The position numbers and the translations under genes were made by a program. Shown one piece after another: positions 3 through 44,438 of a DNA stretch of 64,000 bases (positions within the stretch are counted from its first letter, which is position 1; each line of letters starts with the position of its first letter). The stretch is from IMG/VR virus record IMGVR_UViG_3300024252_000005. The stretch is one strand, 5' to 3'. This stretch comes from a virus (lineage: Duplodnaviria; Caudoviricetes). The notes under the pieces were generated by a model. That model was given only the letters and a program-made list of their open reading frames with translations, ran no database searches and was not told the origin of the DNA.

Positions 3-1238
3 CTTGGATATACTTACGGCTACTTTTGCTTTCAAGAGCAATTCATGTTGATGGCACAAAAGCTTGCTGGGTTTTCACCGGGTGAGAGTGATAAGTTACG
101 AAAGACGCTTGTAAAGAAATCACTAGATACTTTGCATTCTAAAGGATCAGAAAAGGCAATTGCTAGAGAGAAGTTTATTAAAGGCGCCAAAGAGCTCAAT
201 GACATTCCTGAGAGTATTTCTTCGAAGCTCTGGCAAGACATAGAAGGTTTCGCAGTTTATGGCTTCAATCTTTCCCATGCAGTTGCATATGCTATTGGGT
301 CGTATTATGCGGCATGGCTACATACACATCACGAGACTGAGTGGATGGCAGCGATATTGCAATCTGAAAATGGTAATCCTAAAGGGATGTCAAAAGCTAT
401 TTCAGAGATTAAATCATTTGGTTACGAGATTGCTGCAATAGATATAAATCACTCAGGATTAGAATGGGAATACTCTGAAGAACTTGCAGCTTTCGTGCCT
501 CCTTTAACTTCTCTTAAAGGAGTAGGAGACAAAGCTGTTGAAGAAGTATTTGCAAATAGGCCATACAACAATTTAAATAACTTATTTTATAATGAAGAAG
601 GTGTATGGAAGCACTCAAAACTAAATAAGACAGCTTTTTCTTCGCTAGCAAAAATGGAAGCATTTAAATCTCTTTCTGAGTTTAAAGATAATACACTTGA
701 TAATCATAGACAACTCCATGATCTAATTCTAGATAACTATAATCTTCTTAAAAAAGGTAATTATGGAATGACAAAGACTGCAGCCAAAAGAGCATTAAAA
801 AACAATGAGGAGCTCACGTTAATTGTTGATAATTTATTAGATAAATATAAAATTGTATCTGATTGGAGCAGAGCAGAAAAGATTAGTAACTATTTTGATC
901 TATCTAATGACGCATCTGCAGACTTGTTGTTTCCGCCAGCTTTAATAAAAAAGCTACAGCAAAAGTCAATACAATCAATATTTGATATTGAGTCTGGAAA
1001 GAGAGGTATTGGCTGGTTTACGGTTGTTGAAGTCATTCATAAGACAACAAAGAACGGCAAGGCATTTATGCGTTGGAAGTGCGTTGACTCTAACAATAAA
1101 AGTGGTTGGTTAAGAGTTTGGGGAAACATGACTGGTAACATAGAATATTCAACTTGGTTAACAGATGTAAAAAACGATGCGGGCTGGGGAATGTCAACAA
1201 CACTTGGGAAGCTTAGAAAGATAAATGCTTTTGATTAG
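3..1238 (+). CDS. dnaE: DNA polymerase III alpha subunit (DnaE), C-terminal part; 5' end lies outside the window
   Basis: Frame is open from position 3: GYFCFQEQFMLMAQKLAGFSPGESDKLRK matches DnaE QEQ.M..A..LAGFS.GEAD.LR. Also YGFNLSHAVAYA (FNKSH motif), HhH LTSLKGVGDKA and a C-terminal OB-fold-like segment. Confidence 0.9.
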   Translation, partial: LGYTYGYFCFQEQFMLMAQKLAGFSPGESDKLRKTLVKKSLDTLHSKGSEKAIAREKFIKGAKELNDIPESISSKLWQDIEGFAVYGFNLSHAVAYAIGSYYAAWLHTHHETEWMAAILQSENGNPKGMSKAISEIKSFGYEIAAIDINHSGLEWEYSEELAAFVPPLTSLKGVGDKAVEEVFANRPYNNLNNLFYNEEGVWKHSKLNKTAFSSLAKMEAFKSLSEFKDNTLDNHRQLHDLILDNYNLLKKGNYGMTKTAAKRALKNNEELTLIVDNLLDKYKIVSDWSRAEKISNYFDLSNDASADLLFPPALIKKLQQKSIQSIFDIESGKRGIGWFTVVEVIHKTTKNGKAFMRWKCVDSNNKSGWLRVWGNMTGNIEYSTWLTDVKNDAGWGMSTTLGKLRKINAFD

Positions 1239-1316: not shown

Positions 1317-2210
1317 ATGCGATTTACAAATATTAATATTGAAGGTCCTGACTGTAGTGGCAAGACTACATTATTTAATAGACTTCATAAAGAAACAAAT
1401 TTTAAATATAATATACAAGACAGAAGTTGCATGTCAATGTATGTTTATTCAAAGTTATATGAGCGAAGTGATACTTCTTTTTGGTTTGACAAGATCATGG
1501 ATGACATTAAGAGACTAGACACACTTTATATTATTTTGTTACCAACTGAAGATGTTTTACTTGAGAGGTTGCAAAAAAGAGGTGATGAGTTTCAAGATGA
1601 AAGTAGTATTCTTAAAGTAAGAAGTCATTTTTTAAATCTTGCAAAGGTAGGCTTTGGTTCTTACCCGAATGTTTTAGCACTATCAAACATAGAAGACATA
1701 TGTGAAAAAGTTGATTTGAGCTTGAATTTTATTGAGTCGTTAAATGATATGCCAAGTGGTGAACTCATCAAGTCAATAGTAATCAATAGTGGAAGGAATG
1801 AATTAGTAGATGTTCAATGCAAAGAAGAAGTTAAAATAGATTCACTAGATTTCTCTGTTTTAAACTTTCCTCAAGAAAAAAGTTATTATGAGGACATAAT
1901 GCAAAAGATTGAACAGAAGTTATTTAGAGAATTCTCTGGCCTAAATAATAGTAATGCACCACAAAAACATAATAGCAGAAGATTTATATACTCTGGTGAC
2001 AGTTGTATATCTTTAATTCATGCCTTATTCAGGCAAAATAGATTAAATGTTTCAGTTACAATGAGATCTTCTAACGTAATCAAAACTTTATGGGCTGATT
2101 ATGAATTTCTTAAGATATTAAGCGTAAAAATTGCTGAGCTAATGAGTCTAGAAGAGAGTATACCAGTTGATTTAACAATTAATATAAGGTCAGCACATAT
2201 TGTTCCTTAA
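1317..2210 (+). CDS. P-loop dNMP/thymidylate kinase fused to a thymidylate-synthase-fold domain
   Basis: N-terminal GPDCSGKTT and DRS. C-terminal NSRR, C230, MRS (R250, 20 aa after the Cys as in ThyA C146/R166), D261 at the ThyA N177 position, and SAHI. Confidence 0.7.
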   Translation: MRFTNINIEGPDCSGKTTLFNRLHKETNFKYNIQDRSCMSMYVYSKLYERSDTSFWFDKIMDDIKRLDTLYIILLPTEDVLLERLQKRGDEFQDESSILKVRSHFLNLAKVGFGSYPNVLALSNIEDICEKVDLSLNFIESLNDMPSGELIKSIVINSGRNELVDVQCKEEVKIDSLDFSVLNFPQEKSYYEDIMQKIEQKLFREFSGLNNSNAPQKHNSRRFIYSGDSCISLIHALFRQNRLNVSVTMRSSNVIKTLWADYEFLKILSVKIAELMSLEESIPVDLTINIRSAHIVP

Positions 2211-2846: not shown

Positions 2847-5636
2847 TTATTTGCAATATAATTCTTTTAGTGTTCTACCCAACAAGACTCTATGGCTTAG
2901 ATCGAGCTTAGGTGTCATTAGTTTAGTTAAGGGGCTTTTAACAAACTTTTCTAATCGATCGATTTCATTTTTATATGAACTTATCTTAGAAGAACTCCTA
3001 AATGTTTCGATAAATCTATTGTAAAATGATTCATTGTCATTGCTAATAATATCTAAAAGCCTAACTTTAGAAGTAATTAAATTATGTGCGCTATTCTTTA
3101 ATTCTACTTCTTTCTGGAAAGATTGTATTAAAATACCTATTACTAATTTTACAAAGTTAGTTATTGGTACTTCAACTAACATCTCAATTGCTTCACTACT
3201 TTCAGACATAATTCTATATAAGTTTATTGAATAAGCTAAATCATCGTATACAAACAACTTGTTGTTGTTAGAAATTAATTTATCAATGCCATATAAATAT
3301 AATTCTTTACTAATGTTGCTTCTAGAAATTGTTCTTTCAAGTTCGTTAACAAGACTATTTTTCGATAGAACATCTATTAGCTTTTTAACTTTTTCATCAC
3401 CAAGTTCAATTTTAAATTCCTCTACTACATTTACAAAGCGTGAATAAACTTCTTTACTTCTTAAGTTTTCAAATTGCTGTGTCGCGTTTATAACATCTTC
3501 AAGAAAAGTAGTTTTTTCTTTTTTTGTCATTTCTAGAAATATAGGTCTGCAAAGATCAAATTCTTTATTAGGATCCCAACCACATAAAAATATAGCGCCA
3601 AGAAGTTTAGATAAAGTTTTATAATGTATAGATTTGTTAATTATTTTACTGTGAATTTTTTGAAATTTTTGTTTTGAATTGTCAATAAGTGATGTGTATA
3701 TATCATTTATATATAAAGATGTGTCTTCTGAGACTGTGTATTTAGTTGTATACTTGTACAAAGTAGATGATATAGGAAATATATCAGATGCTGCTGATGG
3801 TTTGTTATCAATGTCAAAATCTTCGTATAATTCTGTAAATATATTTACTAATTTTTCTACCGTGCCAGACCCAAATTCTATATTGAAATTTGAATACTTG
3901 CAAAGCAAAATAAAGTTTGTAAGCAAATTTGTCCTTGCAAAGTATGTGCTAAGATTTCCTACAAAATCTACGCTTTTATCAATAAAATCATTTGCTGAAT
4001 TTTTGAATTCTTGCTCAATGCTTCCAGACCTGTTTTCTTCTTTATCATATTCATTGTGATTAAAGATTGTTGGAGAAGAGTGATAACAGTATTTAATTAT
4101 TCTTGATTTCATTTCTTCGTTAACATTAGCGTACTCATATATCACAGGAGCTAGCTCTCCTTGTGTAATAATATTTACCCACGAATAGTCTTTAAGTACT
4201 TTTTCAAACTCTACTTCCCATTTTTCTTCTATTTTATTTCTTTTTCTTAGAATATATCTAAATGCTCTTTGATATGCGTTGAGCAATTGATATTTGCTTT
4301 GATTAACGTCTTCAAAAAGATCACGATAACCTTTTAATGCAATACTAAAAAAAACATTAGAAATAATCCTAGCTTGAAAAGATAAATAATTTGAACATAA
4401 AAAATTTGTAAAACTACTTGGTTTGTATTTGCTGCTATCAATTTTTTCTATTACCATAGATAATATCTCATAAAGTGCTTCAGCGTTGCCTCTTGGGTGA
4501 TCACTTTCTATTACACTGTTTGACATGCCTAATAGAAACTTAGAAGCAAATGATCTTAGAAACGATATCTTGTCTTCTTCATTTAGTTTCTGTATACTTA
4601 ATAATGCGACTCTAATGTTTTTTAGACTTATTTCTTTTAATATATAAATACTGTTTAGATCTATAACCCCTCTAATCTTTTTCTTTTCTTTGTTTTTTTC
4701 TTCTAGCGAATAGTTTTCTTCTGCAATGTTATTCATTGTTTCAAAGTCAAGCTTATTTCTAGATTTGCTGCCTACGAAATCATTTAAGCTATCGTACCAA
4801 TCTACAAAATCAGAATTTTTTGAATCTAGTCTGCCTAAACCAATTAGCTTTGCATCGTGTTTAGGTAAAAAAGAAGCGCAGACAGGACCGTCACTACCAC
4901 CGTAAAGAATAATACCGTCGTAAAGATTAATAATATTTTCTCTTTCAAACTTTTTCATTATTATTTTACTTATCTTAGCTGTAATAATTTTTTCTTCATC
5001 TAACGTTTTGTTTAATTTAAAATCATCTACATTTATCTCATCTAACATTTTTCTTAAAACATCAGTGCTTTTATGAACAACACTTGTTTCGTTATTCAAA
5101 GAAAACATTTTTAATATTTGATTTTTTATGCTCCAGTTTTTACCATGAACTTGTTTAGCCAAGTCTTCAGTGAGTATTAGGAATCTGCTTATATCTATTT
5201 CAAATACAAGACATATGTTGCCGTAAGTTTGTGCAATAGATGGATTAAATTTATAACATGTATATAATCCTACACCATGATACGCGCCACCCCCGGGATT
5301 GAATCCGCTAGAGTCTGTATAAGGATCTCCGATCATATCTGATATTACTTGCTCTTCTACATCATTTTTAGTGACAGTTGCTACTCTATTTTTATTATGG
5401 AGATTTTTTAGTATTCTTTGTGATCTAGAGTCATCTTGAGATACAGTCCTTTCTTCACCTGTTCTAGTGGGTTTATTTAATTGATCAGTAACTCTTTCGT
5501 TATATTGTGCCCACTTTTGGTGGCTAGTTAAGTGATAACATATTAGCTTGTTTGTACTTGCATCAAAGTTAACTATACTAGGATCTAGACTAGATACTTT
5601 TGATTCTGCAAGTAACCATCTTATACTTCTGTTCAT
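2847..5636 (-). CDS. Large protein with N-terminal ADP-ribosyltransferase(PARP-like)-type domain; paralog of 5633..8479
   Basis: YHLTS...GFNPGGGAYHGVGLYT...YGNICLVFEID resembles the H-Y class ART strands; shares about 280 N-terminal aa and the C-terminal LDLSHR...TLKE.Y with the neighbour. Confidence 0.55.
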   Translation of the reverse strand: MNRSIRWLLAESKVSSLDPSIVNFDASTNKLICYHLTSHQKWAQYNERVTDQLNKPTRTGEERTVSQDDSRSQRILKNLHNKNRVATVTKNDVEEQVISDMIGDPYTDSSGFNPGGGAYHGVGLYTCYKFNPSIAQTYGNICLVFEIDISRFLILTEDLAKQVHGKNWSIKNQILKMFSLNNETSVVHKSTDVLRKMLDEINVDDFKLNKTLDEEKIITAKISKIIMKKFERENIINLYDGIILYGGSDGPVCASFLPKHDAKLIGLGRLDSKNSDFVDWYDSLNDFVGSKSRNKLDFETMNNIAEENYSLEEKNKEKKKIRGVIDLNSIYILKEISLKNIRVALLSIQKLNEEDKISFLRSFASKFLLGMSNSVIESDHPRGNAEALYEILSMVIEKIDSSKYKPSSFTNFLCSNYLSFQARIISNVFFSIALKGYRDLFEDVNQSKYQLLNAYQRAFRYILRKRNKIEEKWEVEFEKVLKDYSWVNIITQGELAPVIYEYANVNEEMKSRIIKYCYHSSPTIFNHNEYDKEENRSGSIEQEFKNSANDFIDKSVDFVGNLSTYFARTNLLTNFILLCKYSNFNIEFGSGTVEKLVNIFTELYEDFDIDNKPSAASDIFPISSTLYKYTTKYTVSEDTSLYINDIYTSLIDNSKQKFQKIHSKIINKSIHYKTLSKLLGAIFLCGWDPNKEFDLCRPIFLEMTKKEKTTFLEDVINATQQFENLRSKEVYSRFVNVVEEFKIELGDEKVKKLIDVLSKNSLVNELERTISRSNISKELYLYGIDKLISNNNKLFVYDDLAYSINLYRIMSESSEAIEMLVEVPITNFVKLVIGILIQSFQKEVELKNSAHNLITSKVRLLDIISNDNESFYNRFIETFRSSSKISSYKNEIDRLEKFVKSPLTKLMTPKLDLSHRVLLGRTLKELYCK

Positions 5637-8479
5637 TGCTTTGCCTTTACATTATAAAATCTATATACTTCTTTTAAAGTATTACCTACTATTAAACGAT
5701 GACTTAAATCAAGTTTCTTGTCTAAATTATTATTTTCTTGACCATTTGTTGGGGTTTGTATTTTTGATTTCTTTGCATCAATATTCATTTCAAGAGTAGA
5801 AATAGCTCCTCTTAATCCACTTCCTTTACTCGACTTAACCATTTTAAGAAAATATTCAAACCACGCAATATCGTTTAAGTTAATGATTTGCGGTATTGTA
5901 GTTTCTTCTTCATTAATATTTATAAAAGGAAGACTATTATGTGAGAAGAAATTATATGTAGTTGATTTTAACTTTCCACTACCTCCCCACGTGTATTCAG
6001 GAGTAGGATTTCCAGCAATAGTGTTAGCAAGATTTAAGATAATCATTTTAAGTAAGCCCGGTCTAGCAGCTCGAGCAAAAAGATTTACAATGCTTCTATG
6101 TTTATATAGTAGTCTATATACTCCTGGGTTAAATTCAAAACCTTTAAATGATAATCCTGCGCCCATTCCACCTTTTATCATGTCAGGTTCAAAAAGTTCA
6201 ATAAAGGCATCAGGATCAATATGCTTATAGGAAGCCATAGAATTTTTAGTATTGTGGTGAGATCTACTAATTTTTCTAGTAAATTTAAGCTGCTCTTCTT
6301 TTGTCAATACTATATCGTGACTTTTGATAAGTGCAATTATATAATCTGCCTGTTTTTGTCCTAAAACTTGTTTGATAACTGCAATATTGCCTATAACCAT
6401 TTTAACAAAGTTTGAAAACCATTCGCTTGATTGTCTACTTAAATAGCCAATATAATCTTGATTTTCGATCTGTTTTAAAAGCTCTGTCCCAAGCTGTCTT
6501 TTTGTAATTACTCCTAATCTTAGTTTGTACATGAAGTTGTCAATATCATTTTTAGCAGCTTTTTCATTTTCTGCTAATATTTCTTGTATTTTATCCATCA
6601 CAGGATGAGATCTATCTAGTTCTTTAACAAGATAGTTAGCTATGTTATCAAAGACGCTTTTGTTTGTCATACTTTTTATTTCATCTATATTTTCTAAAAA
6701 AGCACTTGCCAAATATTCACTTGCTTTGCTAGAAAAATAATTTATCTTGGGCAAGAAATAAAATAAATTGCTTAATAGACTCAAGTCATAATTTTGTCTT
6801 AGACTGCTAGCTGTAGGTTGTTTTTTAATTTCATCTATTGTTTTTTCTAACAATTCATTTGTTACTTTATAGTTTTTAAGCGTAGAGTCCCAGTTTAATG
6901 TATATATGGTCGAATTGACAAAAGAGTCAACTATAAGAACAATAACTCTGCTCTTTTGATATTCATCAGCATCTTTATAATAGTTTGATATTTCTTCTAA
7001 AGAGAGCGTTGATACTACAAGTTGTGGGCGAAGATCGTACACTTTCTCATTGAAATCTTTTTTAATTGCTTCACTTACTTCATTATTTTCTATATATTGT
7101 GAAATAAACTTATAAAAATCTCTTGTATCTATAGCACTTCTCTGGAATGCTTTTTCATTCATAACATATTTGATGCAGGTTTTTAAGAAAAAATCAGATG
7201 GTTTTATATTATATTTCAAATAGTTTTCAAATAATGTCCTTGAAAAATATGTTTGTGTTTGCAACACATTTTTTTGAATTAGTACATTAATTGTTTGATC
7301 AACTATCTCGTTATAAAGCGGGCCTGATTTTACAACACTTTCAGCCCAAACATATTGTGAGCTTTTAAAAGACATTAAGAAGAACTCAAGCATGTTTTTA
7401 TCATTTTTTGATTTTATATCTTCGTAATAATCAAAAAATCTTACTCTTTTTTCTTCACCTACGTCAGAAAGATTCGAATGACTCTTGAAAAATGTCGATA
7501 TTTGTAAATATTGCACATCAAAAGGAATACGCTCACTTAATTTCATTGCCTCTAATTCTTGAGGATCAGAATTTTCTGCTGCAATAGCATTTATAGTTTC
7601 AAAGTCTTGCTTTAATTTTGCACGTCCTCTTACAAAATCATTTAAGCTATCATACCAGTCAACAACTTCAGGTCGAGATGGATTTAGTCTACCTAAACCA
7701 ATTAACTTTGCGTCATATTTAGGGAAAAAAGAAGTACAAACAGGACCATCAGACCTACCATATAAAATTACTCCGTCATATACAGAAGTTATTATGTTTT
7801 TTCCAAATATCTGTAATAGATGTTGACTTATACCAGCAGTTCTTTCATTGAAAGAATTAATAGTTTTTGCCATCTTTGTTTTTTCGTCATAATCTGGAAT
7901 ATCATTAAGAACTTGTTTAAATTTCTGAATACTTTCCTCAGACTTTTCTTCTCTTTTATAGAACTTTAAAAGTTGATCTCTTATTGACCAGTCTTCACCA
8001 TGAACTTGTTTGGCTAAATCTTCAAAAGTTATTAAAAAGTTACTTATATCTACTTCAAACACTAAACATATATTACCATAGTGACTAGCAATAGAAGGAT
8101 TAAATTTGTAGCACGTATATAAACCTTTCCCATGATAGTCACCTCCGCCAGCTACAAAGCCGCTTGTCTCTGTATAAGGATCAGAGATTAAATCTTCGAC
8201 AACAAGCTCTTCTATTTGCCAGTCTTTATAGCTTTTGTTTTTTGAAACATTAGAAATTCTTTTTACAATACTTTTCGCTCGAGTATCTGTTGGCAATATT
8301 TCCCTATCAGGTCTTGAAGGAGGTGTGTCCATTCTTTTTGCAAACTCGTTATGTCGTATCCAATTTTGTTTTGAAGTCAAGTGATAACATATTAATTTAT
8401 CACCTACAATGTTTATTTTGTTTGTATCTAGTCCAGATAATTTTGCTTCTGTCAATAACCATCTTATACTTTTATTCAT
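5633..8479 (-). CDS. Large protein with N-terminal ADP-ribosyltransferase(PARP-like)-type domain; paralog of 2847..5636
   Basis: YHLTS...GFVAGGGDYHGKGLYT...YGNICLVFEVD...DGVILYGRSDGPVC; 4-nt overlap with the downstream paralog. Confidence 0.55.
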   Translation of the reverse strand: MNKSIRWLLTEAKLSGLDTNKINIVGDKLICYHLTSKQNWIRHNEFAKRMDTPPSRPDREILPTDTRAKSIVKRISNVSKNKSYKDWQIEELVVEDLISDPYTETSGFVAGGGDYHGKGLYTCYKFNPSIASHYGNICLVFEVDISNFLITFEDLAKQVHGEDWSIRDQLLKFYKREEKSEESIQKFKQVLNDIPDYDEKTKMAKTINSFNERTAGISQHLLQIFGKNIITSVYDGVILYGRSDGPVCTSFFPKYDAKLIGLGRLNPSRPEVVDWYDSLNDFVRGRAKLKQDFETINAIAAENSDPQELEAMKLSERIPFDVQYLQISTFFKSHSNLSDVGEEKRVRFFDYYEDIKSKNDKNMLEFFLMSFKSSQYVWAESVVKSGPLYNEIVDQTINVLIQKNVLQTQTYFSRTLFENYLKYNIKPSDFFLKTCIKYVMNEKAFQRSAIDTRDFYKFISQYIENNEVSEAIKKDFNEKVYDLRPQLVVSTLSLEEISNYYKDADEYQKSRVIVLIVDSFVNSTIYTLNWDSTLKNYKVTNELLEKTIDEIKKQPTASSLRQNYDLSLLSNLFYFLPKINYFSSKASEYLASAFLENIDEIKSMTNKSVFDNIANYLVKELDRSHPVMDKIQEILAENEKAAKNDIDNFMYKLRLGVITKRQLGTELLKQIENQDYIGYLSRQSSEWFSNFVKMVIGNIAVIKQVLGQKQADYIIALIKSHDIVLTKEEQLKFTRKISRSHHNTKNSMASYKHIDPDAFIELFEPDMIKGGMGAGLSFKGFEFNPGVYRLLYKHRSIVNLFARAARPGLLKMIILNLANTIAGNPTPEYTWGGSGKLKSTTYNFFSHNSLPFININEEETTIPQIINLNDIAWFEYFLKMVKSSKGSGLRGAISTLEMNIDAKKSKIQTPTNGQENNNLDKKLDLSHRLIVGNTLKEVYRFYNVKAKQ

Positions 8480-9356: not shown

Positions 9357-9926
9357 ATGAATCCATTTTTCAATGTTTATATAGGCCCAATGTTTGGTGC
9401 TAAGACTACAAGATTACTTGCAGATATTGATAGATTAAAGTATAAAGGTCGTAAAGTTATTGCTTTTAAGCCTAATGTTGACAAGAGATATGCAGAAGAT
9501 AAGATATCATCACATAATAATGGGACTATAAAAGCATGTTGCATAGATGATGCTAATGATATATTTAATGTAATAGAATCATTTAATCTTGACGGGACTT
9601 CTATTGACACTATTGCTGTAGACGAAGCATTTATGATAAAATATATAGATAGCGTATTAATTAGCTTGTATAGACAAGGATATAATATAATTGTAGCATC
9701 AATTCAAATGGACACTAAAGAGAAGCCTTTTGAAAATATAAAGAATATACTTCCTTGGGCAACTAAAATAGAAATTTGCCCTGCTGTATGTACAATGTGT
9801 AATGAAGATGCGTATTTTACAGAAGCATTATTTGATATTGAAAATGCTACGCAAGAAGAAAAAATTGGCGGGAAAAGTATGTATGAGCCAAGATGTGCAA
9901 AGCACCTTTCAGGATTTTCAATTTAA
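9357..9926 (+). CDS. tdk: Thymidine kinase (type II)
   Basis: GPMFGAKTTRL P-loop, IAVDEAF, CTMC...YEPRC zinc/lasso motif. Confidence 0.92.
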   Translation: MNPFFNVYIGPMFGAKTTRLLADIDRLKYKGRKVIAFKPNVDKRYAEDKISSHNNGTIKACCIDDANDIFNVIESFNLDGTSIDTIAVDEAFMIKYIDSVLISLYRQGYNIIVASIQMDTKEKPFENIKNILPWATKIEICPAVCTMCNEDAYFTEALFDIENATQEEKIGGKSMYEPRCAKHLSGFSI

Positions 9927-10354
9927 TGAGTTCTATTGATCGACCGTCGTGGGATAGTACGTGGATGAAAGTTGCAGAAACGATTGCACTAAGAAGTCAC
10001 CATTCAGAGTTTAAAGTAGGAGCACTTATTGTAACGTCAGATAATACACAAGTTCTTTCTTTAGGGTATAATGGTAATGCAGCAGGAATGTCAAACGTGC
10101 CTCAATCTGAGAAACCTGGCTGTAGTGGTTTGCTGCATGCTGAAATAAATGCTTTGCTTAAGCTTGATTATAATAATCCTAAAGACAAAGTCATGTATTT
10201 GACATTGAGTCCTTGCGAGATGTGTGCAAAAGCTATTATTAATAGTGGAATAGATAAAGTAGTATATAAAGAGAAATATAGAGATGAAACAGGAATTAAT
10301 CTATTACGAAAAATGAACGTTTCTATAGAGAAATATATTATTGATGAGGAATAG
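9926..10354 (+). CDS. dCMP deaminase
   Basis: RPSWD, HAEINA and SPCEMC zinc motifs; ATG at 9926 overlaps the tdk stop (track start 9893). Confidence 0.9.
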   Translation: MSSIDRPSWDSTWMKVAETIALRSHHSEFKVGALIVTSDNTQVLSLGYNGNAAGMSNVPQSEKPGCSGLLHAEINALLKLDYNNPKDKVMYLTLSPCEMCAKAIINSGIDKVVYKEKYRDETGINLLRKMNVSIEKYIIDEE

Positions 10355-17498: not shown

Positions 17499-18086
17499 AT
17501 GAAGCTTAATAGTGAATTGATGTTAAAGTTATTAAAAGAAGAGTATGATAAGAGGCTAGACTATTATCTTAAAGAAGTAGAGACTAGAGCTGAGCATAGT
17601 CAAGAAGACGCAGAGTTAGTTAATAATGCTCGTGGGTTGAAGCTTAAAGATAGAGCAGGCTTTTTATATACTTTGTTTGAGATCATTAAAGACGAAAGTG
17701 GCAAGATATTTGCTTTGCTTATTCCGCCTGGAGAAGGTGATGATGAAATGATAGGGCCTGCCTCAACACGTTTGCATGACGATTTACCCGCTAGCGATCA
17801 TGAATTAGAAGACATGCAGTTCTCTGAAGAGCCTGAATATATTTATTCGGGAGTCAATGAAAACGAAGATACAGCAGAAGAAAATAAAAAAAGTGTAAAA
17901 CAAAAGTCAGAAGCTTCAAGCAAAGACGTCAAAGTAAAAGACGATGGCATTAGAGAACCAAATCCTGATGCAGCAAAGAAAAAGTCATTTAAACCAGACG
18001 TTTCAGCGCAAGTCAAAGAATATGAAGAAGTTAATGACATGATTAAAGTAAGTCTAGAAGAGTTAGAGAAAGAGTTTTCACTATGA
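17499..18086 (+). CDS. Hypothetical acidic protein with N-terminal tag (MLKLLKEE)
   Basis: 195-aa ORF coupled to the SOD gene. Confidence 0.75.
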   Translation: MKLNSELMLKLLKEEYDKRLDYYLKEVETRAEHSQEDAELVNNARGLKLKDRAGFLYTLFEIIKDESGKIFALLIPPGEGDDEMIGPASTRLHDDLPASDHELEDMQFSEEPEYIYSGVNENEDTAEENKKSVKQKSEASSKDVKVKDDGIREPNPDAAKKKSFKPDVSAQVKEYEEVNDMIKVSLEELEKEFSL

Positions 18087-18826
18087 GCAACTTAGAAGAT
18101 ATTATCAATAAAGCTATAGAAGCTACTTTAGAAGAAAATGGTATTAACAATCATAAAAGCAAAAATGTTTTAACAGAAGAAAAACAGAAAACAAATAGAA
18201 CCATATCTGAAGCTTATGTGACGCAAGCTGGTTCATTTGATTTACAAACTGAACTTTTATCTTCTAAGACTAAGAAAGCACATAAAGAGCTTTTGGATGG
18301 TTATGTTAAGAAATTAAATAAGATCTCTTCTGAACTTGATGGTGTTGACAAGTCAAGTGCTAATCTAAATAGCTCTCAGTTTCGAAGCTTAAAGATTGAT
18401 GAAACTTATAATCATAATGCAGCATTTTTGCACGGTCTTTACTTTGAAAACATAAGTGATCTAAGTAGCAATATTACAATGGACTCACTTGTCTATATGA
18501 GATTAGCAAGAGACTTTGGTTCATTTGACGCCTGGCAAGAAGATTTCGTTGCATGTGCACTTTCAGCAAGAAATGGCTGGGCAGTAACTTATTTTGACAT
18601 GCATCTTCAGAGATATATGAATACAGTCATTGATTTGCATAGTCAAAGTGTTATGACAGGAATGTTTCCTGTTGTAGTTATGGATTGCTGGGAACATAGT
18701 TATTATAGAGATTATCTTAAAGATAGAAAATCGTATGTTTTTGGTATGATGAAAGAATTAAACTGGTCAGTTATCGAAGATAGAGTTAAAAAAGCTGATA
18801 AGATATCTAAGGTTTTAAGAGGTTAA
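18083..18826 (+). CDS. sod: Fe/Mn superoxide dismutase with N-terminal extension
   Basis: Metal-ligand pattern: KAH, NAAFLHGLYFENI, GWA, and DCWEHSYY (D.WEHAYY signature). Confidence 0.88.
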   Translation: MSNLEDIINKAIEATLEENGINNHKSKNVLTEEKQKTNRTISEAYVTQAGSFDLQTELLSSKTKKAHKELLDGYVKKLNKISSELDGVDKSSANLNSSQFRSLKIDETYNHNAAFLHGLYFENISDLSSNITMDSLVYMRLARDFGSFDAWQEDFVACALSARNGWAVTYFDMHLQRYMNTVIDLHSQSVMTGMFPVVVMDCWEHSYYRDYLKDRKSYVFGMMKELNWSVIEDRVKKADKISKVLRG

Positions 18827-40775: not shown

Positions 40776-41843
40776 ATGAAGTCAAATAAAAATAAACTAA
40801 AAGAATCAAACAAGGCATTGAGCTTTGATGATGTAATATTAAAACCCAGATATTCTGATATTTTATCTAGAAAAGAAATAGATACAAGCATTAAACTGCC
40901 TGAACATATGCTTGATTTTGATATTCCACTAATTAGCAGTCCAATGTCAACTGTAACTGAAGCTTATATGTGTAACGCGATGTCTAATCTTGGAGGTTTA
41001 GGCATTATACATAGATATAATACAGTAGAATTCCAAACAAAATTATTATCTTACGTCTCTTGTCCAAATACAAAAGCAGCAGCAATAGGTGTTACAGGAG
41101 ATTTCAAAGAAAGACTAGCTTCACTTGTCAGTGAAGGTTTAACAATAGTCTGTATAGATGTTGCGCATGGAGATCATATATTAGTAAAGAATGCAATAGA
41201 ATTTATAAAGGAAAAATATCCAAGTCTTTTTATAATAGCAGGCAACGTAGCATCTGGCGAAGCTTACGCTAGATTGTCTTCTTGGGGAGCAAATGCAATT
41301 AGAACAAGTGTAGGTAGTGGAAGTATATGTACAACAAGAATACAAACAGGACACGGAATTCCAACTTTTCATGCTGTTGTTGACTGCTATAATGAAAAGA
41401 TTTTACTTGAAAAACAAAATAAACATGCTGCATGTATAATTGCAGATGGTGGAATTAAGAACAGTGGTGATATTGTTAAATCACTAGCTGCAGGTGCTGA
41501 CTTTGTAATGTTAGGCGCTATGTTAAGCGGGACAAAAGAAACACCAGGAAGAGTAATAACTAGTGATGAAGGCAAGAAAATAAAAAGATACAATGGAATG
41601 GCTTCAAAAGCAGCACAAAAAAACTGGAAAGGCTCATATTCATCAATAGAAGGTGTCTCTTCACACGTTCAGTATAAAGGAACGTTATCAAAAGTAGTTA
41701 ATGAAATAATGTCAAATGTTAGAAGCGGAATGTCTTATAGCAATGCTAGAAACTTAAAAGAGTTAAAAGACGTTGCTGATTTTATGATTCAAACTAACTC
41801 TTCTAATGTAGAAGGTAACCCACACATTTTTAATAAAAGGTAA
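40776..41843 (+). CDS. IMP dehydrogenase/GMP reductase family, no CBS domains; short flap favours GMP reductase
   Basis: LSFDDV, SPMSTV, IDVAHG, AGNV, GSGSICTTR, IIADGG, GMAS...EG. Confidence 0.88.
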   Translation: MKSNKNKLKESNKALSFDDVILKPRYSDILSRKEIDTSIKLPEHMLDFDIPLISSPMSTVTEAYMCNAMSNLGGLGIIHRYNTVEFQTKLLSYVSCPNTKAAAIGVTGDFKERLASLVSEGLTIVCIDVAHGDHILVKNAIEFIKEKYPSLFIIAGNVASGEAYARLSSWGANAIRTSVGSGSICTTRIQTGHGIPTFHAVVDCYNEKILLEKQNKHAACIIADGGIKNSGDIVKSLAAGADFVMLGAMLSGTKETPGRVITSDEGKKIKRYNGMASKAAQKNWKGSYSSIEGVSSHVQYKGTLSKVVNEIMSNVRSGMSYSNARNLKELKDVADFMIQTNSSNVEGNPHIFNKR

Positions 41844-41847
41844 GAAA

Positions 41848-43119
41848 ATGCCAACAAAATTAGTATTAGGCCTCCAACATGGAGATGAAGGTAAAGGTAG
41901 AGTTGTAGATGATATCGCAGTCGACTGGGCAGACGTTGTTGTAAGATTTCAAGGAGGAGGAAATGCAGGCCATACTGTGTATGACTCTGACGGGAATAAA
42001 CATGTAACGCATATCCTGCCCGTAGGTGTAATAATCAGCAACGAGTTAAATACACTAAAGAAATATAAGTATAACGAAGTCAAAAGACATATAACTAACG
42101 TTATAGCAAGAGGCTGTGTATTAAATGTATTTGATCTATATAATGAAATAAAAGAATTAAATATAGATATAACACCTGCTGACTTACAAATATCAGGTTA
42201 CTGTCCCTTGATAGAACCTACACATATTTTAATTGATAGACTTAAGTATCAAGGAAAACTAGGGACAACTGCAAGAGGAATAGGTCCCGCATACTCAGAC
42301 TTTTATGCAAGAGACTCTATTTTATTTAAAGACTTAATTGAAGACCCGCATAACTCTTTAAATAAAATGCAAAACAAGTTCTTTAAATTCCAAACAGATC
42401 TAGTGCAAGAGGGTCATGTACATACTCGACTTTCAAATTATTCACACAACGATCTTTTAAATGATAATTTTGCTTTCTTTAACAGCTGGACTGATAATTT
42501 CTTAGAAAAGATTGAGTTTATTAAACAGTTTGTTGTAAAAGATGAAAGTTTAATTATTGATTTTTATAATGAAGGAAAAAATATATTGCTAGAAGGAGCG
42601 CAAGGTTGCGGCTTAAATATTCATTCTAATAATTACCCAGATGTCACATCTTCAGCACCTACTGTTGGAGGAGCATTAAACTCGACTGGTTTGAATCATA
42701 ATCAAATTGATGAAGTAATTGGTGTAATTAAAGCTTATAAGACAAAAGTAGGCACAGGTACTTTTCCAAGTTTATGTGATGAACAAAGCGGCGATACTTT
42801 AGCTAAAGAAGGCAATGAATTCGGAGCAACAACTGGTCGCCCAAGAAAGTGTGGATGGCTTGATTTAGATGAAGTAAATCAGGCAATTAAAATGAACGGC
42901 GTAGATCATTTATGCCTTATAAAGACAGATGTTTTTACAAATATAGAAAAGCCTTTCGTGTATTATAAAAAGAATCTAATGCAGATAGCTAAGATTAACA
43001 CCGTTTCAATCGAAGACAAATCATTTGTAAACCTATTAGAAGCAATTAAAGATAAAACTGGCGTAAACAGAATATCTTTTACGACTGGCCCAAAGAGAGG
43101 TGAAATTGTTTGGGACTAG
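41848..43119 (+). CDS. purA: Adenylosuccinate synthetase
   Basis: GDEGKG, RFQGGGNAGHT, GTTARGIGPAY, EGAQG, GATTGRPRKCGWLD. Confidence 0.95.
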   Translation: MPTKLVLGLQHGDEGKGRVVDDIAVDWADVVVRFQGGGNAGHTVYDSDGNKHVTHILPVGVIISNELNTLKKYKYNEVKRHITNVIARGCVLNVFDLYNEIKELNIDITPADLQISGYCPLIEPTHILIDRLKYQGKLGTTARGIGPAYSDFYARDSILFKDLIEDPHNSLNKMQNKFFKFQTDLVQEGHVHTRLSNYSHNDLLNDNFAFFNSWTDNFLEKIEFIKQFVVKDESLIIDFYNEGKNILLEGAQGCGLNIHSNNYPDVTSSAPTVGGALNSTGLNHNQIDEVIGVIKAYKTKVGTGTFPSLCDEQSGDTLAKEGNEFGATTGRPRKCGWLDLDEVNQAIKMNGVDHLCLIKTDVFTNIEKPFVYYKKNLMQIAKINTVSIEDKSFVNLLEAIKDKTGVNRISFTTGPKRGEIVWD

Positions 43120-43283
43120 AAATAGGCAATTTAGCTGTTATAGAAAGCTGTGATTCTATTTGGAGATTTGCTAATACATCTTTGATTTGCTTAGGATATG
43201 ATTGGAGTGATATTGCTTCTATGGTGAAGAAATCAGAAGAATAGCAATTAGAGAAAAAGCATTAGAAAGAATGAAAATAAAAA

Positions 43284-44438
43284 ATGATACCAAGATATAA
43301 AAACAAAAAAATACATGAAATCTGGTCAACAGATAATAAGCTAAAAGTATGGCTTGGCGTAGAGTTAGCACATCTTTCAGCTTTAAATAGTAATATTATA
43401 GATAAAACTATAAACCAGCGCGAATATGAAACTATTGTTGACAATATTAAAATAGACAAAGATAGATGGAAGGAAATTGAAGCAGAAACTAAGCATGATG
43501 TTCAAGCTTTTGTTCAGATGCTAGAAGAGTTAATACCAGATAATAGTGGGCGATGGATACATTATGGATTAACTTCTTCAGATGTTCTAGACACTTCACT
43601 TACTATAATGTGTAGATATTCTATAAAAGAAATATTAAGTCACTGTGCTTCTTGTATTTACTATGTTGAGCAACTATGTAATAGAAAAGAATCTGAGTCT
43701 AGTATTTTAGCAAGAACACATGGCAAAGCTGCAGAAGTTCAAACTTATAAAGACATATTTACAAGATGGAAATATATGTTGCGAAGAGCATATGATGAAC
43801 TATCAAGATCACAAACAACTGTCAACAAAGGAAAGCTATCAGGCCCATCTGGAAACTATACTACTAACTCAGTTTTGAATGAAAACGTTGCTTTAAATAT
43901 CTTGGGACTTAGATCAACAAAAGCATCACAAATTATTCCTAGAGATATTTATTTAGATTATTTTTATGGAATTCTAAAAGTCATGCTAGCTGTAGAAAAA
44001 ATATCATATGATATTAGAATGTATAGTATCGATGGAATAAACGAAATGTCAGAAAGCTTTAGCAAAGGACAAAAAGGATCAAGTTCGATGCCACATAAAA
44101 AGAATCCCATAGGAACAGAGAATTTATGTGGCATTGTTAGATTATATAAATCATATTATCAAGCAGCAATTGATAATTGCTTCACACTCTTTGAAAGAGA
44201 CATATCCAATTCAGCTCCAGAAAGGATTATCTTTAAAGACTCAGCACATATTGCATGTTATTCTTTGGAAAGGTTAGCTAGCATTCTTAATCATTTAGTT
44301 ATAAAAGACGCCAACGCTGCTAAAAATATAGAGATATTTAACGAAAATATTGCCTCACAAGAAATAATGAATATTAAAATCAAAGAAGGCAAAAGCAGAA
44401 AAGAGTCGCACGATTTTTCACAAACTATGTCTAAGTAA
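43284..44438 (+). CDS. purB: Adenylosuccinate lyase
   Basis: TKHDV, HYGLTSSD, ARTHG, GSSSMPHKKNP signature, ERDIS. Confidence 0.92.
   Translation: MIPRYKNKKIHEIWSTDNKLKVWLGVELAHLSALNSNIIDKTINQREYETIVDNIKIDKDRWKEIEAETKHDVQAFVQMLEELIPDNSGRWIHYGLTSSDVLDTSLTIMCRYSIKEILSHCASCIYYVEQLCNRKESESSILARTHGKAAEVQTYKDIFTRWKYMLRRAYDELSRSQTTVNKGKLSGPSGNYTTNSVLNENVALNILGLRSTKASQIIPRDIYLDYFYGILKVMLAVEKISYDIRMYSIDGINEMSESFSKGQKGSSSMPHKKNPIGTENLCGIVRLYKSYYQAAIDNCFTLFERDISNSAPERIIFKDSAHIACYSLERLASILNHLVIKDANAAKNIEIFNENIASQEIMNIKIKEGKSRKESHDFSQTMSK

What the first reader, a model, noticed from the sequence alone, without database searches (positions are those of the whole stretch)
1317..2210. Nucleotide kinase fused to a minimal thymidylate-synthase fold carrying the cytosine-type Asp
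Seen: NSRR, C230, R250-S251 and D261-Y262, with spacing identical to E. coli ThyA C146/R166/S167/N177, and a terminal SAH. Established: N177 selects dUMP, while T4 dCMP hydroxymethylase has Asp there (MRSNDVVFGFRNDY versus MRSSNVIKTLWADY here). The domain is short, and the ThyA D169 position is Asn. Inference: a one-polypeptide dCMP-modifying plus phosphorylating enzyme, hinting at a modified-cytosine genome, or a repurposed TS.
Basis: partly seen in the sequence, partly recalled or inferred. Interest (0 to 1): 0.72.

Follow-up and report, generated by a model that had tools for sequence, protein, structure and literature searches.

The report
Kinase fused to mini thymidylate-synthase fold
An uncultured marine large phage, like hundreds of relatives, encodes one protein joining a small nucleotide kinase to a stripped-down, cytosine-type thymidylate-synthase-like domain, which probably makes and phosphorylates a modified cytosine nucleotide, though no assay has shown this.

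Summary
ORF 1317-2210 (+) encodes 297 aa.

- **Kinase, residues 1-140.** It is a compact YorR/thymidylate-kinase-class P-loop kinase.
- **Mini-TS domain, residues 140-297.** It has a thymidylate-synthase (TS) fold of only about 158 aa. In an exhaustive fold search the seven best PDB clusters are all TS family (Z 8.8-11.6); the next hit is Z 5.8.
- **Active-site residues.** The alignment gives R221/R222 = ThyA R126/R127, C230 = C146, R250/S251 = R166/S167, N253 = D169, D261 = N177 and H294 = H207. These are 90-99% conserved across 71 diverse homologues.
- **What is missing.** The C-terminal tail is absent, and apparently the folate-binding region too.
- **Closest relatives.** These are the phage dCMP-specific enzymes T4 gp42 and the flavin-dependent 5-hydroxy-dCMP synthases (HY126 AfhB, RB69 gp48). 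Those gene clusters also carry YorR/TMPK-like kinase genes.
- **Dimer.** A TS-like homodimer is predicted (0.87 against a best control of 0.32).

My best reading is a bifunctional dCMP C5-modifying enzyme plus kinase (about 0.45).

Four points count against it:
- No dCTPase or glycosyltransferase was found in the window or in relatives' fragments.
- Relatives carry ThyX.
- The N253 signature flips N/D repeatedly in the family.
- No cofactor site could be tested.

This scan reached much the same reading on the same family in other genomes.

The parts
1317..2210 (+). Whole gene: 297-aa kinase plus mini-TS fusion protein (stop codon 2208-2210)
   Evidence: ORF list and translation. 324 homologues, nearly all 295-297 aa and full length. 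The AF2 model has pLDDT 97.6 and pTM 0.91.
1317..1736 (+). Residues 1-140: compact P-loop (d)NMP kinase domain of the YorR/thymidylate-kinase class
   Evidence: Pfam PF02223 scores 28 bits against a cut-off of 27. TIGR00041 scores 33.8 against a cut-off of 83. The family profile matches YorR 2axp at E 8.9e-16. VIA gives Z 13.5 to 2axp and about 12 to TMPKs.
1344..1370 (+). P-loop G10-P-D-C-S-G-K-T-T18
   Evidence: G10, D12, G15 and K16 are at least 94% conserved in 71 homologues. The P-loop aligns to YorR EGPDCCFKST.
1419..1424 (+). D35-R36, the 'DR' motif of thymidylate-kinase-type kinases. About 28 residues that YorR has before it are absent here.
   Evidence: Alignment to YorR and Aquifex TMPK; conservation.
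1566..1586 (+). LID-type basic motif R84-x3-R88-G-D90
   Evidence: R84 is kept in 70/71, R88 in 65/71 and D90 in 66/71. It aligns to YorR RLRVRGDE.
1737..2207 (+). Residues 141-297: miniaturised thymidylate-synthase-fold domain
   Evidence: Fold searches; hhalign; PHROG 160.
1974..1985 (+). S220-R221-R222-F223. This equals the ThyA S-R126-R127 pair that reaches into the partner subunit's phosphate site.
   Evidence: hhalign. R221 is kept in 68/71 and R222 in 66/71. In the dimer model R221 touches the partner's R250.
2004..2006 (+). C230, equal to the ThyA C146 nucleophile
   Evidence: hhalign. Kept in 67/71. It is lost together with the other site residues in 4 members.
2031..2033 (+). R239, shared with T4 gp42 (LIR) and RB69 gp48 (YIR); ThyA has Ala here
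   Evidence: Alignments; kept in 66/71.
2064..2075 (+). R250-S251-S252-N253, equal to ThyA R166-S167-C168-D169. Asn is at the D169 position.
   Evidence: hhalign. R is kept in 68/71 and S in 69/71. Position 253 is N in 40, D in 23, H in 4 and E in 2.
2097..2099 (+). D261, equal to ThyA N177 and T4 gp42 D179: the cytosine-type specificity residue
   Evidence: hhalign; kept in 70/71.
2190..2198 (+). S292-A293-H294, equal to RB69 gp48 SAH and ThyA D-T-H207. The protein ends 3 residues later.
   Evidence: hhalign to RB69 gp48 and to the TS alignment; H is kept in 67/71.

Best explanation
The gene encodes a homodimeric, two-activity enzyme of pyrimidine deoxynucleotide metabolism.

**Proposed mechanism (inferred).**
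- The C-terminal mini-TS domain binds a cytosine 5'-mononucleotide, most likely dCMP.
- R250/S251, plus R221'/R222' from the partner subunit, would hold the phosphate.
- H294 would hold the sugar 3'-OH, and D261 would read the cytosine N3/N4 edge.
- C230 would add to C6, as in all TS-family enzymes, which activates C5 for a substituent.
- The folate-binding tail, and probably the W80 region, are gone. The RSxN...D...SAH-end pattern matches the flavin-dependent 5-hydroxy-dCMP synthases. So 5-hydroxylation with a loosely bound flavin and O2 is the leading candidate chemistry. Hydroxymethylation or another C5 or C4 reaction is not excluded.
- The N-terminal YorR/TMPK-type kinase would then phosphorylate the product to the diphosphate, committing it to DNA synthesis.

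**Shown here:** the fold, the residue equivalences, the conservation, the fusion architecture and its wide distribution, the conserved synteny, and a predicted TS-like dimer.

**Inferred only:** substrate, cofactor, product, kinase specificity, and any modification of the virion DNA.
For: **Fold.** For the domain alone, all seven PDB clusters with Z of 8 or more are TS family. The best is 9iqc, the HY126 flavin dCMP hydroxylase: Z 11.6, 138 residues aligned, rmsd 2.9. Foldseek's top two matches are 9iqu and 9iqc.

**Residue equivalences**, with conservation in 71 homologues of 25-53% identity:
- C230: 67/71
- R221: 68/71
- R222: 66/71
- R250: 68/71
- S251: 69/71
- D261: 70/71
- H294: 67/71

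The TS core (residues 219-297) is as conserved as the kinase, 39% against 35% mean identity.

**Co-loss of site residues.** Four members (P0124, P0131, P0222, P0229) have lost Cys along with other site residues (RS, SRR and/or His; in P0222 also Asp). All four keep the P-loop. That is how one catalytic site decays.

**Features shared with the dCMP-specific phage enzymes but not ThyA.** Asp at the N177 site; R239; and, with gp48 only, Asn at the D169 site, the SAH motif and an end soon after it.

**Published support (PMC13326640).**
- N177D plus D169N marks 5hodCMP synthases.
- A dNMP kinase co-expressed with the synthase gave a UV-visible 5hodC peak; the synthase alone gave only a mass-spectrometry trace.
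- YorR/TMPK-like 'nucleotide kinase' genes lie 1-3 genes from the synthase in DLP3, RB69 and RL38JI.

**Dimer prediction.** The homodimer scores ipSAE 0.87 against a best control of 0.32. In calibration this mark was reached by 20 of 30 proteins solved as pairs of one chain and by 1 of 23 solved as single chains. Runs agree in 100% of contacts, and pLDDT is at least 90. The interface is the TS-type sheet, with R221' next to R250. TS dimers are well known, so this pass may come from the model's memory of solved structures.
Against: - **Size.** The domain is about 80 residues shorter than the smallest characterised relatives (217-246 aa). Its N-terminal half cannot be aligned with confidence. 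Equivalents of R21, E58, W80 and Y94, and any cofactor pocket, are therefore unverified.
- **Pfam.** PF00303 does not recognise the domain: no hit for this protein, and 3 of 52 members at E up to 1.
- **Position 253.** It switches between N and D at least 8 times on well-supported branches of the family tree. The D169N 'diagnostic' may therefore not carry over to this family.
- **Accessory genes.** No MazG-type dCTPase and no GT1 or GT2 glycosyltransferase was found in the 64-kb window. None was found in five relatives' contigs of 74-116 kb either. Those contigs are only 29-46% complete.
- **Context.** The conserved neighbourhood is thymidine kinase, dCMP deaminase and ThyX, with a GMP-to-AMP operon. 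It reads as an A+T-nucleotide supply module. A plain dTMP kinase would suffice there.
- **Loss of the site.** Some members dispense with the TS site but keep the kinase.
Confidence: 0.45

Rival explanations
1. The kinase is the real function. It would be a dTMP or broad dNMP kinase feeding an A+T-rich genome. The mini-TS domain would be a degenerate, non-modifying module that dimerises the kinase and binds or senses a pyrimidine nucleotide. For example, it could bind dCMP as a regulator, or capture substrate in place of the kinase's missing NMP-binding segment.
For: - The gene sits in a conserved dTTP-supply context. DnaE, TK, a DHH phosphoesterase and dCMP deaminase flank it, with ThyX upstream, and this holds down to 33% identity.
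- The kinase lacks about 28 residues that YorR has before the DR motif.
- In the dimer model, kinase residues 28-59 lie in the interface next to the TS sheet.
- Four of 71 members lost the TS site but kept the P-loop.
- No cofactor-binding region can be identified.
- No dCTPase or glycosyltransferase was found.
Against: - A binding or dimerisation module would not need a nucleophilic Cys kept in 67/71, nor the full set of Arg, Ser, Asp and His.
- Those residues decay together only in a few lineages.
- A compact stand-alone kinase of the same shape exists: an Atlas cluster of 168 aa with 191 members, aligned over residues 1-162 at rmsd 2.0. So the kinase probably does not depend on the TS domain for substrate binding.
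Confidence: 0.25
2. The domain is catalytically active but does something other than C5 hydroxylation or hydroxymethylation of dCMP. Options include Cys-assisted deamination or C5-H exchange, methylation with another donor, action on ribo-CMP as MilA does, or a composite reaction that uses the kinase's ATP.
For: - Conserved residues have no assigned TS counterpart. These are E162, E187, Y190/Y191, E205, G208 and N210, at 80-94%.
- The folate tail is absent.
- The frequent N/D exchange at 253 suggests a chemistry that does not depend on that residue.
- MilA (CMP hydroxymethylase) is among the structural matches at Z 9.3.
- The two domains pack tightly, with whole-protein pTM 0.91.
Against: No positive evidence points to any particular alternative. 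H294 equals the His that binds the deoxyribose 3'-OH in ThyA. The phage already has a zinc dCMP deaminase.
Confidence: 0.2
3. The protein is a genuine thymidylate synthase (dUMP to dTMP) fused to thymidylate kinase.
For: The TS fold and the TMPK-like kinase would form consecutive steps. An ESM Atlas cluster of 437-aa viral proteins joins PF02223 to a full PF00303 domain.
Against: - Asp, not Asn, is at the N177 site in 70/71.
- The C-terminal tail needed to close on folate is absent.
- PF00303 does not match.
- Relatives already encode a canonical ThyX (158-177 bits) on the same contigs.
Confidence: 0.03

Closest known systems
Flavin-dependent 5-hydroxy-dCMP synthases of the TS superfamily: phage HY126 AfhB (PDB 9iqu, 9iqc), RB69 gp48, DLP3 gp80 (PMC13326640)
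   Same: - Best structural match: Z 11.6, and Foldseek ranks 1-2.
- Shares the Cys nucleophile, SRR, R-S-x-N (Asn at the ThyA D169 site), Asp at the N177 site, R239, the SAH motif, and an end soon after that strand.
- Those phages also keep a YorR/TMPK-like kinase gene beside the synthase.
   Different: - This domain is about 158 aa against 217-238 aa.
- It is fused to the kinase rather than encoded separately.
- Sequence identity is only 17-20%.
- Flavin binding is untested.
- No arabinose or hexose-nucleotide genes, glycosyltransferases or dCTPase were found nearby.
- N at 253 is not fixed in the family.
T4 gp42 dCMP hydroxymethylase (PDB 1b49, 1b5d, 6a9a)
   Same: It is the best sequence-profile match: hmmsearch E 0.004 and hhalign 94%. 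It shares Asp at the specificity site, SRR, Cys, R-S and the Arg after the Cys strand.
   Different: gp42 keeps Asp at the D169 site and a folate site, and has 246 aa. Here position 253 is Asn, the tail is missing, and 14 residues between SRR and Cys are deleted.
E. coli ThyA and canonical thymidylate synthases (Pfam PF00303)
   Same: Same fold (Z 10-11.4), with identical spacing of Cys, Arg-Ser and the specificity residue. A TS-type dimer is predicted.
   Different: - Asp replaces N177 and Asn replaces D169.
- There is no P-C-H context around the Cys.
- 11 residues are deleted before the Cys, and about 55 C-terminal residues are absent.
- The W80/Y94 region cannot be identified.
- The Pfam model does not match.
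B. subtilis SPbeta YorR (PDB 2axp, 3kb2) and bacterial/archaeal thymidylate kinases
   Same: The kinase half matches YorR at profile E 8.9e-16 and Z 13.5. It shares the GPDxxxK[ST]T P-loop, the DR motif and the RxxxRGDE lid.
   Different: It lacks about 28 residues before the DR motif relative to YorR, and about 55 relative to TMPK. It scores far below the dTMP-kinase equivalog cut-off, 33.8 against 83 bits. Its substrate is unknown.
Viral 437-aa 'thymidylate kinase/thymidylate synthase' proteins (ESM Atlas cluster, 62 members)
   Same: They combine the same two families in one polypeptide. The feature score is 0.91, and 178 residues align.
   Different: Their TS part is full length and matches PF00303 in all members. 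They did not appear among the phmmer hits of the mini domain. TM is only 0.45. I obtained no sequences, so their specificity residue is unknown.

Membership tests
Thymidylate synthase / dCMP hydroxymethylase superfamily (Pfam PF00303) | Match to the curated family HMM above its gathering score | tested here: not met
   There is no PF00303 hit for the protein at E up to 10. Only 3 of 52 family members hit at E up to 1, the best at 0.0047. PHROG 160 does match, at E 2.2e-5.
Thymidylate synthase / dCMP hydroxymethylase superfamily (Pfam PF00303) | TS alpha/beta fold | tested here: met
   VIA wide search: the seven best clusters are all TS family (Z 8.8-11.6, 138-145 of 158 residues aligned), and the next hit is Z 5.8. 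Foldseek's top 50 are all TS family.
Thymidylate synthase / dCMP hydroxymethylase superfamily (Pfam PF00303) | Catalytic Cys, with the Arg-Ser and Arg-Arg' phosphate-binding residues and the His at the sugar 3'-OH, in register | tested here: met
   hhalign registers; conservation of 90-99%. An equivalent of R21 was not identified.
Thymidylate synthase / dCMP hydroxymethylase superfamily (Pfam PF00303) | Obligate homodimer through the beta-sheet, with Arg-Arg' crossing into the partner's site | tested here: met
   This rests on prediction only. ipSAE is 0.87 against a best control of 0.32, a mark reached by 20 of 30 solved homo-pairs and by 1 of 23 single chains. Runs agree in 100% of contacts, pLDDT is at least 90, and R221 touches the partner's R250 and S292. 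The result may reflect the model's memory of solved TS dimers.
Thymidylate synthase / dCMP hydroxymethylase superfamily (Pfam PF00303) | Folate-binding elements: the C-terminal tail that closes on the cofactor, and the W80/W83 helix region | tested here: not met
   The protein ends 3 residues after the H207-equivalent, whereas ThyA has 57 more. About 45-70 residues of the N-terminal half are missing, and that part aligns with no confidence.
Flavin-dependent 5-hydroxy-dCMP synthases (AfhB / RB69 gp48 / DLP3 gp80) | Asp at the ThyA N177 position | tested here: met
   D261; kept in 70/71.
Flavin-dependent 5-hydroxy-dCMP synthases (AfhB / RB69 gp48 / DLP3 gp80) | Asn at the ThyA D169 position (diagnostic according to PMC13326640) | tested here: inconclusive
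   N253 is present in this protein and throughout its own clade. Across the family the residue is N in 40, D in 23, H in 4 and E in 2, with at least 8 changes forced by supported branches.
Flavin-dependent 5-hydroxy-dCMP synthases (AfhB / RB69 gp48 / DLP3 gp80) | Acidic residue at the ThyA L143 position (three residues before the Cys) | tested here: inconclusive
   The sequence here is G227-D228-S229-C230, so the acid lies at -2, not -3. In the family, -3 is D or E in 27/71 and -2 is D or E in 43/71. The alignment has a gap at this point.
Flavin-dependent 5-hydroxy-dCMP synthases (AfhB / RB69 gp48 / DLP3 gp80) | Binds a flavin and uses O2 to hydroxylate C5 of dCMP | not testable with these tools
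   This needs purified protein (colour, UV-Vis, HPLC of the cofactor) and an 18O2 or LC-MS assay, as in PMC13326640.
Flavin-dependent 5-hydroxy-dCMP synthases (AfhB / RB69 gp48 / DLP3 gp80) | Genomic company of dCTPase, NDP-sugar synthesis genes and DNA glycosyltransferases | tested here: inconclusive
   None was found by Pfam or PHROGs in the window. MazG, GT1 and GT2 were absent from five relatives' contigs, but those are only 29-46% complete. About 190 kb of this phage's own contig was not examined.
Thymidylate kinase / YorR-type NMP kinases | P-loop, DR motif and basic LID in a Rossmann-like NMP-kinase fold | tested here: met
Thymidylate kinase / YorR-type NMP kinases | dTMP-kinase equivalog score, and a complete NMP-binding segment between the P-loop helix and DR | tested here: not met
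   TIGR00041 scores 33.8 bits against a cut-off of 83.25. There is a 28-residue gap relative to YorR and about 55 relative to Aquifex TMPK.

The most novel reading that the evidence does not exclude
An abundant, uncultured group of marine large phages makes a non-canonical cytosine nucleotide with the smallest thymidylate-synthase-fold enzyme yet seen. It would be a roughly 158-residue core with no folate pocket, working as a dimer in one polypeptide with its own kinase. It might use a cofactor arrangement or a composite TS-kinase site not described for any TS homologue. Their DNA would then carry a modified cytosine without the usual glycosylation genes.
Probability: 0.3. Interest if true: 0.8.

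Novelty: new variant of a known kind. Interest (0 to 1): 0.62.

Why it matters
- **Minimal catalytic core.** If active, this would be the minimal core of the TS superfamily. It would show which parts of the fold are needed for Cys-C6 chemistry on cytosine nucleotides.
- **Fusion as evidence of coupling.** The fusion gives 'Rosetta-stone' evidence that the YorR/TMPK-like kinases found beside 5-hydroxy-dCMP synthases in RB69, DLP3 and RL38JI work on the synthase's product. That role is still untested in those phages.
- **Ecological reach.** The family is common in ocean metagenomes: 324 clusters at 90% identity, Tara samples, and contigs up to 278 kb. A modified cytosine in these phages would affect how marine viromes are sequenced, restricted and quantified.
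- **Possible tool.** It could also supply a compact enzyme for making modified dCDP/dCTP.
- **If the domain is inactive.** It would then be an example of a TS fold reused as a nucleotide-binding dimerisation scaffold for a kinase.

Tried and rejected
- **Cultured phages.** tblastn of the whole protein found nothing at E 1e-3. The C-domain alone gave only weak hits (E 0.03-9). Seven of those nine fell on annotated TS or gp42 genes, which is suggestive but not significant.
- **Longer fused forms.** A search for forms of 521-2000 aa found none. The 437-aa Atlas cluster lies in the 'near' length range, but it was not among the 120 rows listed or the phmmer hits. I could not get its sequences.
- **Window's own genome.** No whole genome is held for the window. 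ThyA/ThyX, dCTPase and glycosyltransferases could only be sought in the window and in relatives' fragments. ThyX-like ORFs of relatives have no tblastn match in the window.
- **RB69p045 kinase.** Its comparison with this kinase aligned only the P-loop. No claim of specific kinship is made.
- **N-terminal half of the mini domain.** A forced global hhalign gave zero confidence there. So I do not say which of ThyA helix B or helix H survives.
- **Model coordinates.** These are not exposed. I could not measure the distance between the kinase and TS sites, or inspect a cofactor pocket.
- **Literature.** Searches for this fusion found no description of it.
- **Split form.** In L035 the kinase and the mini-TS are two ORFs one frame apart. 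This could be a real split or an indel, and I did not use it as evidence.
Full report
**The gene.** Window 1317-2210 (+) is an ATG-started ORF of 297 codons. It lies 79 bases after the end of a DnaE-type polymerase gene, and its stop overlaps the end of a convergent 208-codon ORF.

**The kinase half.** Residues 1-140 are a P-loop nucleoside-monophosphate kinase.
- Pfam Thymidylate_kin just passes its cut-off, 28 against 27 bits.
- The NCBIfam dTMP-kinase equivalog is far below its own, 33.8 against 83 bits.
- A profile of 71 homologues matches the SPbeta protein YorR (2axp/3kb2) at E 8.9e-16, and thymidylate kinases more weakly.
- The model superposes on YorR at Z 13.5 and on TMPKs at about 12.
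- The P-loop (GPDCSGKTT), D35-R36, R50 and the lid R84-x3-R88-G-D90 are kept in at least 90% of homologues.
- The kinase is unusually compact. About 28 residues that YorR has between the first helix and the DR motif are missing, and about 55 relative to Aquifex TMPK.

**The TS-like half: fold.** Residues 140-297 have a thymidylate-synthase fold.

Sequence evidence alone is modest but consistent.
- PHROG 160 (thymidylate synthase) matches at E 2.2e-5.
- The domain profile finds T4 dCMP hydroxymethylase at E 0.004 in PDB, followed by the 9iqu/9iqc proteins.
- hhalign gives 94% to T4 gp42, 90% to RB69 gp48 and 59% to E. coli ThyA.
- hhalign gives 95.7% (E 3.6e-9) to an alignment of the three.
- Pfam's own model does not see the domain.

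Structure prediction is confident: pLDDT 97.6 and pTM 0.91 for the whole protein, and 95.7 and 0.90 for the domain. An exhaustive comparison of the domain with 48,161 PDB representatives gives seven chains with Z of 8 or more. All are TS family:
- HY126 flavin dCMP hydroxylase 9iqc (Z 11.6)
- four ThyAs (Z 9.8-11.4)
- MilA (Z 9.3)
- T4 gp42 (Z 8.8)

The list then drops to Z 5.8.

**The TS-like half: residues.** The equivalences are R221/R222 = ThyA R126/R127, C230 = C146, R250/S251 = R166/S167, N253 = D169, D261 = N177 and H294 = H207.

What has been removed:
- 11-16 residues between the SRR strand and the Cys.
- The whole C-terminal tail. ThyA continues for 57 residues after the His, gp42 for about 27, gp48 for 14, and this protein for 3.
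- Some 45-70 residues of the N-terminal half.

That N-terminal part cannot be aligned with confidence. I therefore cannot say whether equivalents of E58, W80 and Y94 exist. Conserved E162, E187, Y190/Y191, E205, G208 and N210 have no assigned counterpart.

**Closest relatives of the domain.** The domain shares three things with the phage dCMP-specific enzymes but not with ThyA. These are Asp at the N177 site, an Arg at the end of the Cys strand (R239; LIR in gp42, YIR in gp48, YVA in ThyA), and a short C-terminus. With the 5-hydroxy-dCMP synthases alone it shares Asn at the D169 site and the SAH motif.

Lee et al. (PMC13326640) report three relevant points.
- N177D gives dCMP preference.
- D169N was found in every 5hodCMP synthase they tested.
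- These enzymes carry a loosely bound flavin and take the oxygen from O2.

Their Table 1, together with the RB69 annotation, shows a YorR/TMPK-like 'nucleotide kinase' gene 1-3 genes from the synthase in DLP3 (gp78, best PDB hit 3kb2), RB69 (p045) and RL38JI (gp214). The present protein joins those two partners in one chain.

**The family.**
- 324 clusters at 90% identity match the whole protein. Nearly all are 295-297 aa, come from marine metagenomes including Tara, and sit on contigs up to 278 kb.
- An exhaustive phmmer search with the C-domain finds 119 representatives at 50% identity. Most are about 300 aa with the domain at the C-terminus.
- ESM Atlas clusters with this shape are all viral.
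- No cultured phage has the protein.
- In 71 diverse members the TS site residues are kept at 90-99%. The TS core is as conserved as the kinase.
- Four members have lost the Cys along with other site residues (R-S, SRR and/or His) while keeping the P-loop. That is what one expects if these residues form one working site that is occasionally abandoned.
- Position 253 is not stable. It is N in 40, D in 23, H in 4 and E in 2, with at least 8 changes required by well-supported branches. This protein's own clade is uniformly N.

**Dimer.** A homodimer prediction scores ipSAE 0.87 against a best control of 0.32. In calibration this mark was reached by 20 of 30 proteins solved as pairs of one chain and by 1 of 23 solved as single chains. 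Runs agree in 100% of contacts, and pLDDT is at least 90.

The interface is formed by strands 162-165, 221-251 and 287-294, which is the TS sheet. R221 of one chain touches R250 and S292 of the other, as R126'/R127' do in ThyA. Kinase residues 28-59 also meet across the axis. Because TS dimers are well known, this pass may reflect the model's memory of them.

**Context.**
- The gene lies 5 kb from one end of a 255-kb contig, after a DnaE that is in pieces.
- In the window it is followed by two paralogous genes of about 930 and 950 codons on the other strand, then thymidine kinase and dCMP deaminase.
- Further on are GroEL, a sigma factor, a GMP reductase-like/PurA/PurB operon and a DNA ligase.
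- The order DnaE, fusion gene, GMP-reductase-like gene, TK, DHH phosphoesterase, dCMP deaminase is kept in a homologue of only 33% identity.
- Four of the five relatives' contigs searched carry two ThyX-like genes each and none carries a ThyA. ThyX is not inside the window.
- No MazG-type dCTPase and no GT1 or GT2 glycosyltransferase was found in the window or in five relatives' contigs. Those contigs are only 29-46% complete, and about 190 kb of this phage's contig was out of reach.

**Reading.** Architecture and residues favour an active cytosine-nucleotide enzyme coupled to a kinase. The nearest characterised chemistry is flavin-dependent 5-hydroxylation of dCMP. I put this at about 0.45.

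The main rival, at 0.25, is that the kinase serves dTTP supply and the mini-TS domain is a nucleotide-binding dimerisation scaffold. The context and the missing cofactor elements support that rival. The conserved nucleophile argues against it. So does a stand-alone compact kinase cluster of the same shape, because it suggests the kinase can work alone.

Another chemistry on cytosine gets 0.2. A true thymidylate synthase is very unlikely (0.03).

**Novelty.** I found no paper describing this fusion. Earlier follow-ups of this scan, on the same family in other genomes, reached much the same conclusion. That agreement is not independent evidence. It is a new variant of a known kind: the TS superfamily and NMP kinases are known, but a roughly 158-residue TS core fused to its kinase is not.

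Noticed in passing
L017-L024 (IMG/VR relatives G001-G004); L032:3315-4734: Relatives carry two ThyX-like genes 2-4 kb apart. One is canonical (about 237 aa, 158-177 bits). The other is divergent (about 325 aa, 65-75 bits). In L032 the divergent one is followed by a PF05014 nucleoside 2-deoxyribosyltransferase-like gene, the superfamily of MilB and DNPH1. The second ThyX might itself act on another pyrimidine.
   Followed up: partly
window 40776-44438: A GMP reductase/IMPDH-family gene, adenylosuccinate synthetase and adenylosuccinate lyase lie in a row. Together they form a route from GMP to AMP that suits a 30% G+C genome. The scan had already noted this (e1-5410788).
   Followed up: partly
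window 9357-10354: Thymidine kinase (E 1.8e-36) and dCMP deaminase (E 1.7e-24) overlap by 34 bases. They are conserved next to the fusion gene in distant relatives, together with a DHH/DHHA1 phosphoesterase.
   Followed up: partly
L028:88-4889 (upstream of the window start; window 3-1238 is its tail): The DnaE-type polymerase is in pieces. A 532-aa PHP plus pol3-alpha N-terminal gene comes first, then a 307-aa ORF with no Pfam family, then a 762-aa gene with the rest. In L032 the PHP part is also a separate 233-aa gene.
   Followed up: no
P0124, P0131, P0222, P0229 (homologues; P0124 is the sister of this protein on the tree): These natural variants have lost the Cys along with other TS-site residues (Arg-Ser, SRR and/or His) but keep the kinase P-loop. 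They would serve as ready-made negative controls.
   Followed up: partly
L035:111-1039: The kinase (141 aa) and the mini-TS domain (169 aa) are two overlapping ORFs one frame apart, on a contig seen in two samples. This may be a real split gene or an indel.
   Followed up: partly
L031:37-2495: A D253-type homologue (P0138) is flanked by a fatty-acid-hydroxylase-family gene and an NDP-sugar epimerase/dehydratase gene. This is the only hint of sugar-nucleotide metabolism near any family member I looked at.
   Followed up: no
window 2847-8479 (-): Two adjacent genes of 929 and 948 codons have no Pfam family. They lie directly downstream of the fusion gene on the other strand. The scan noted them as paralogues with an ART-like head (e1-5410777).
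   Followed up: no
window 18083-18826: This 247-aa protein has only the C-terminal domain of Fe/Mn superoxide dismutase (E 1.1e-19). It is conserved after dCMP deaminase in a distant relative (L032:15723-16415).
   Followed up: no
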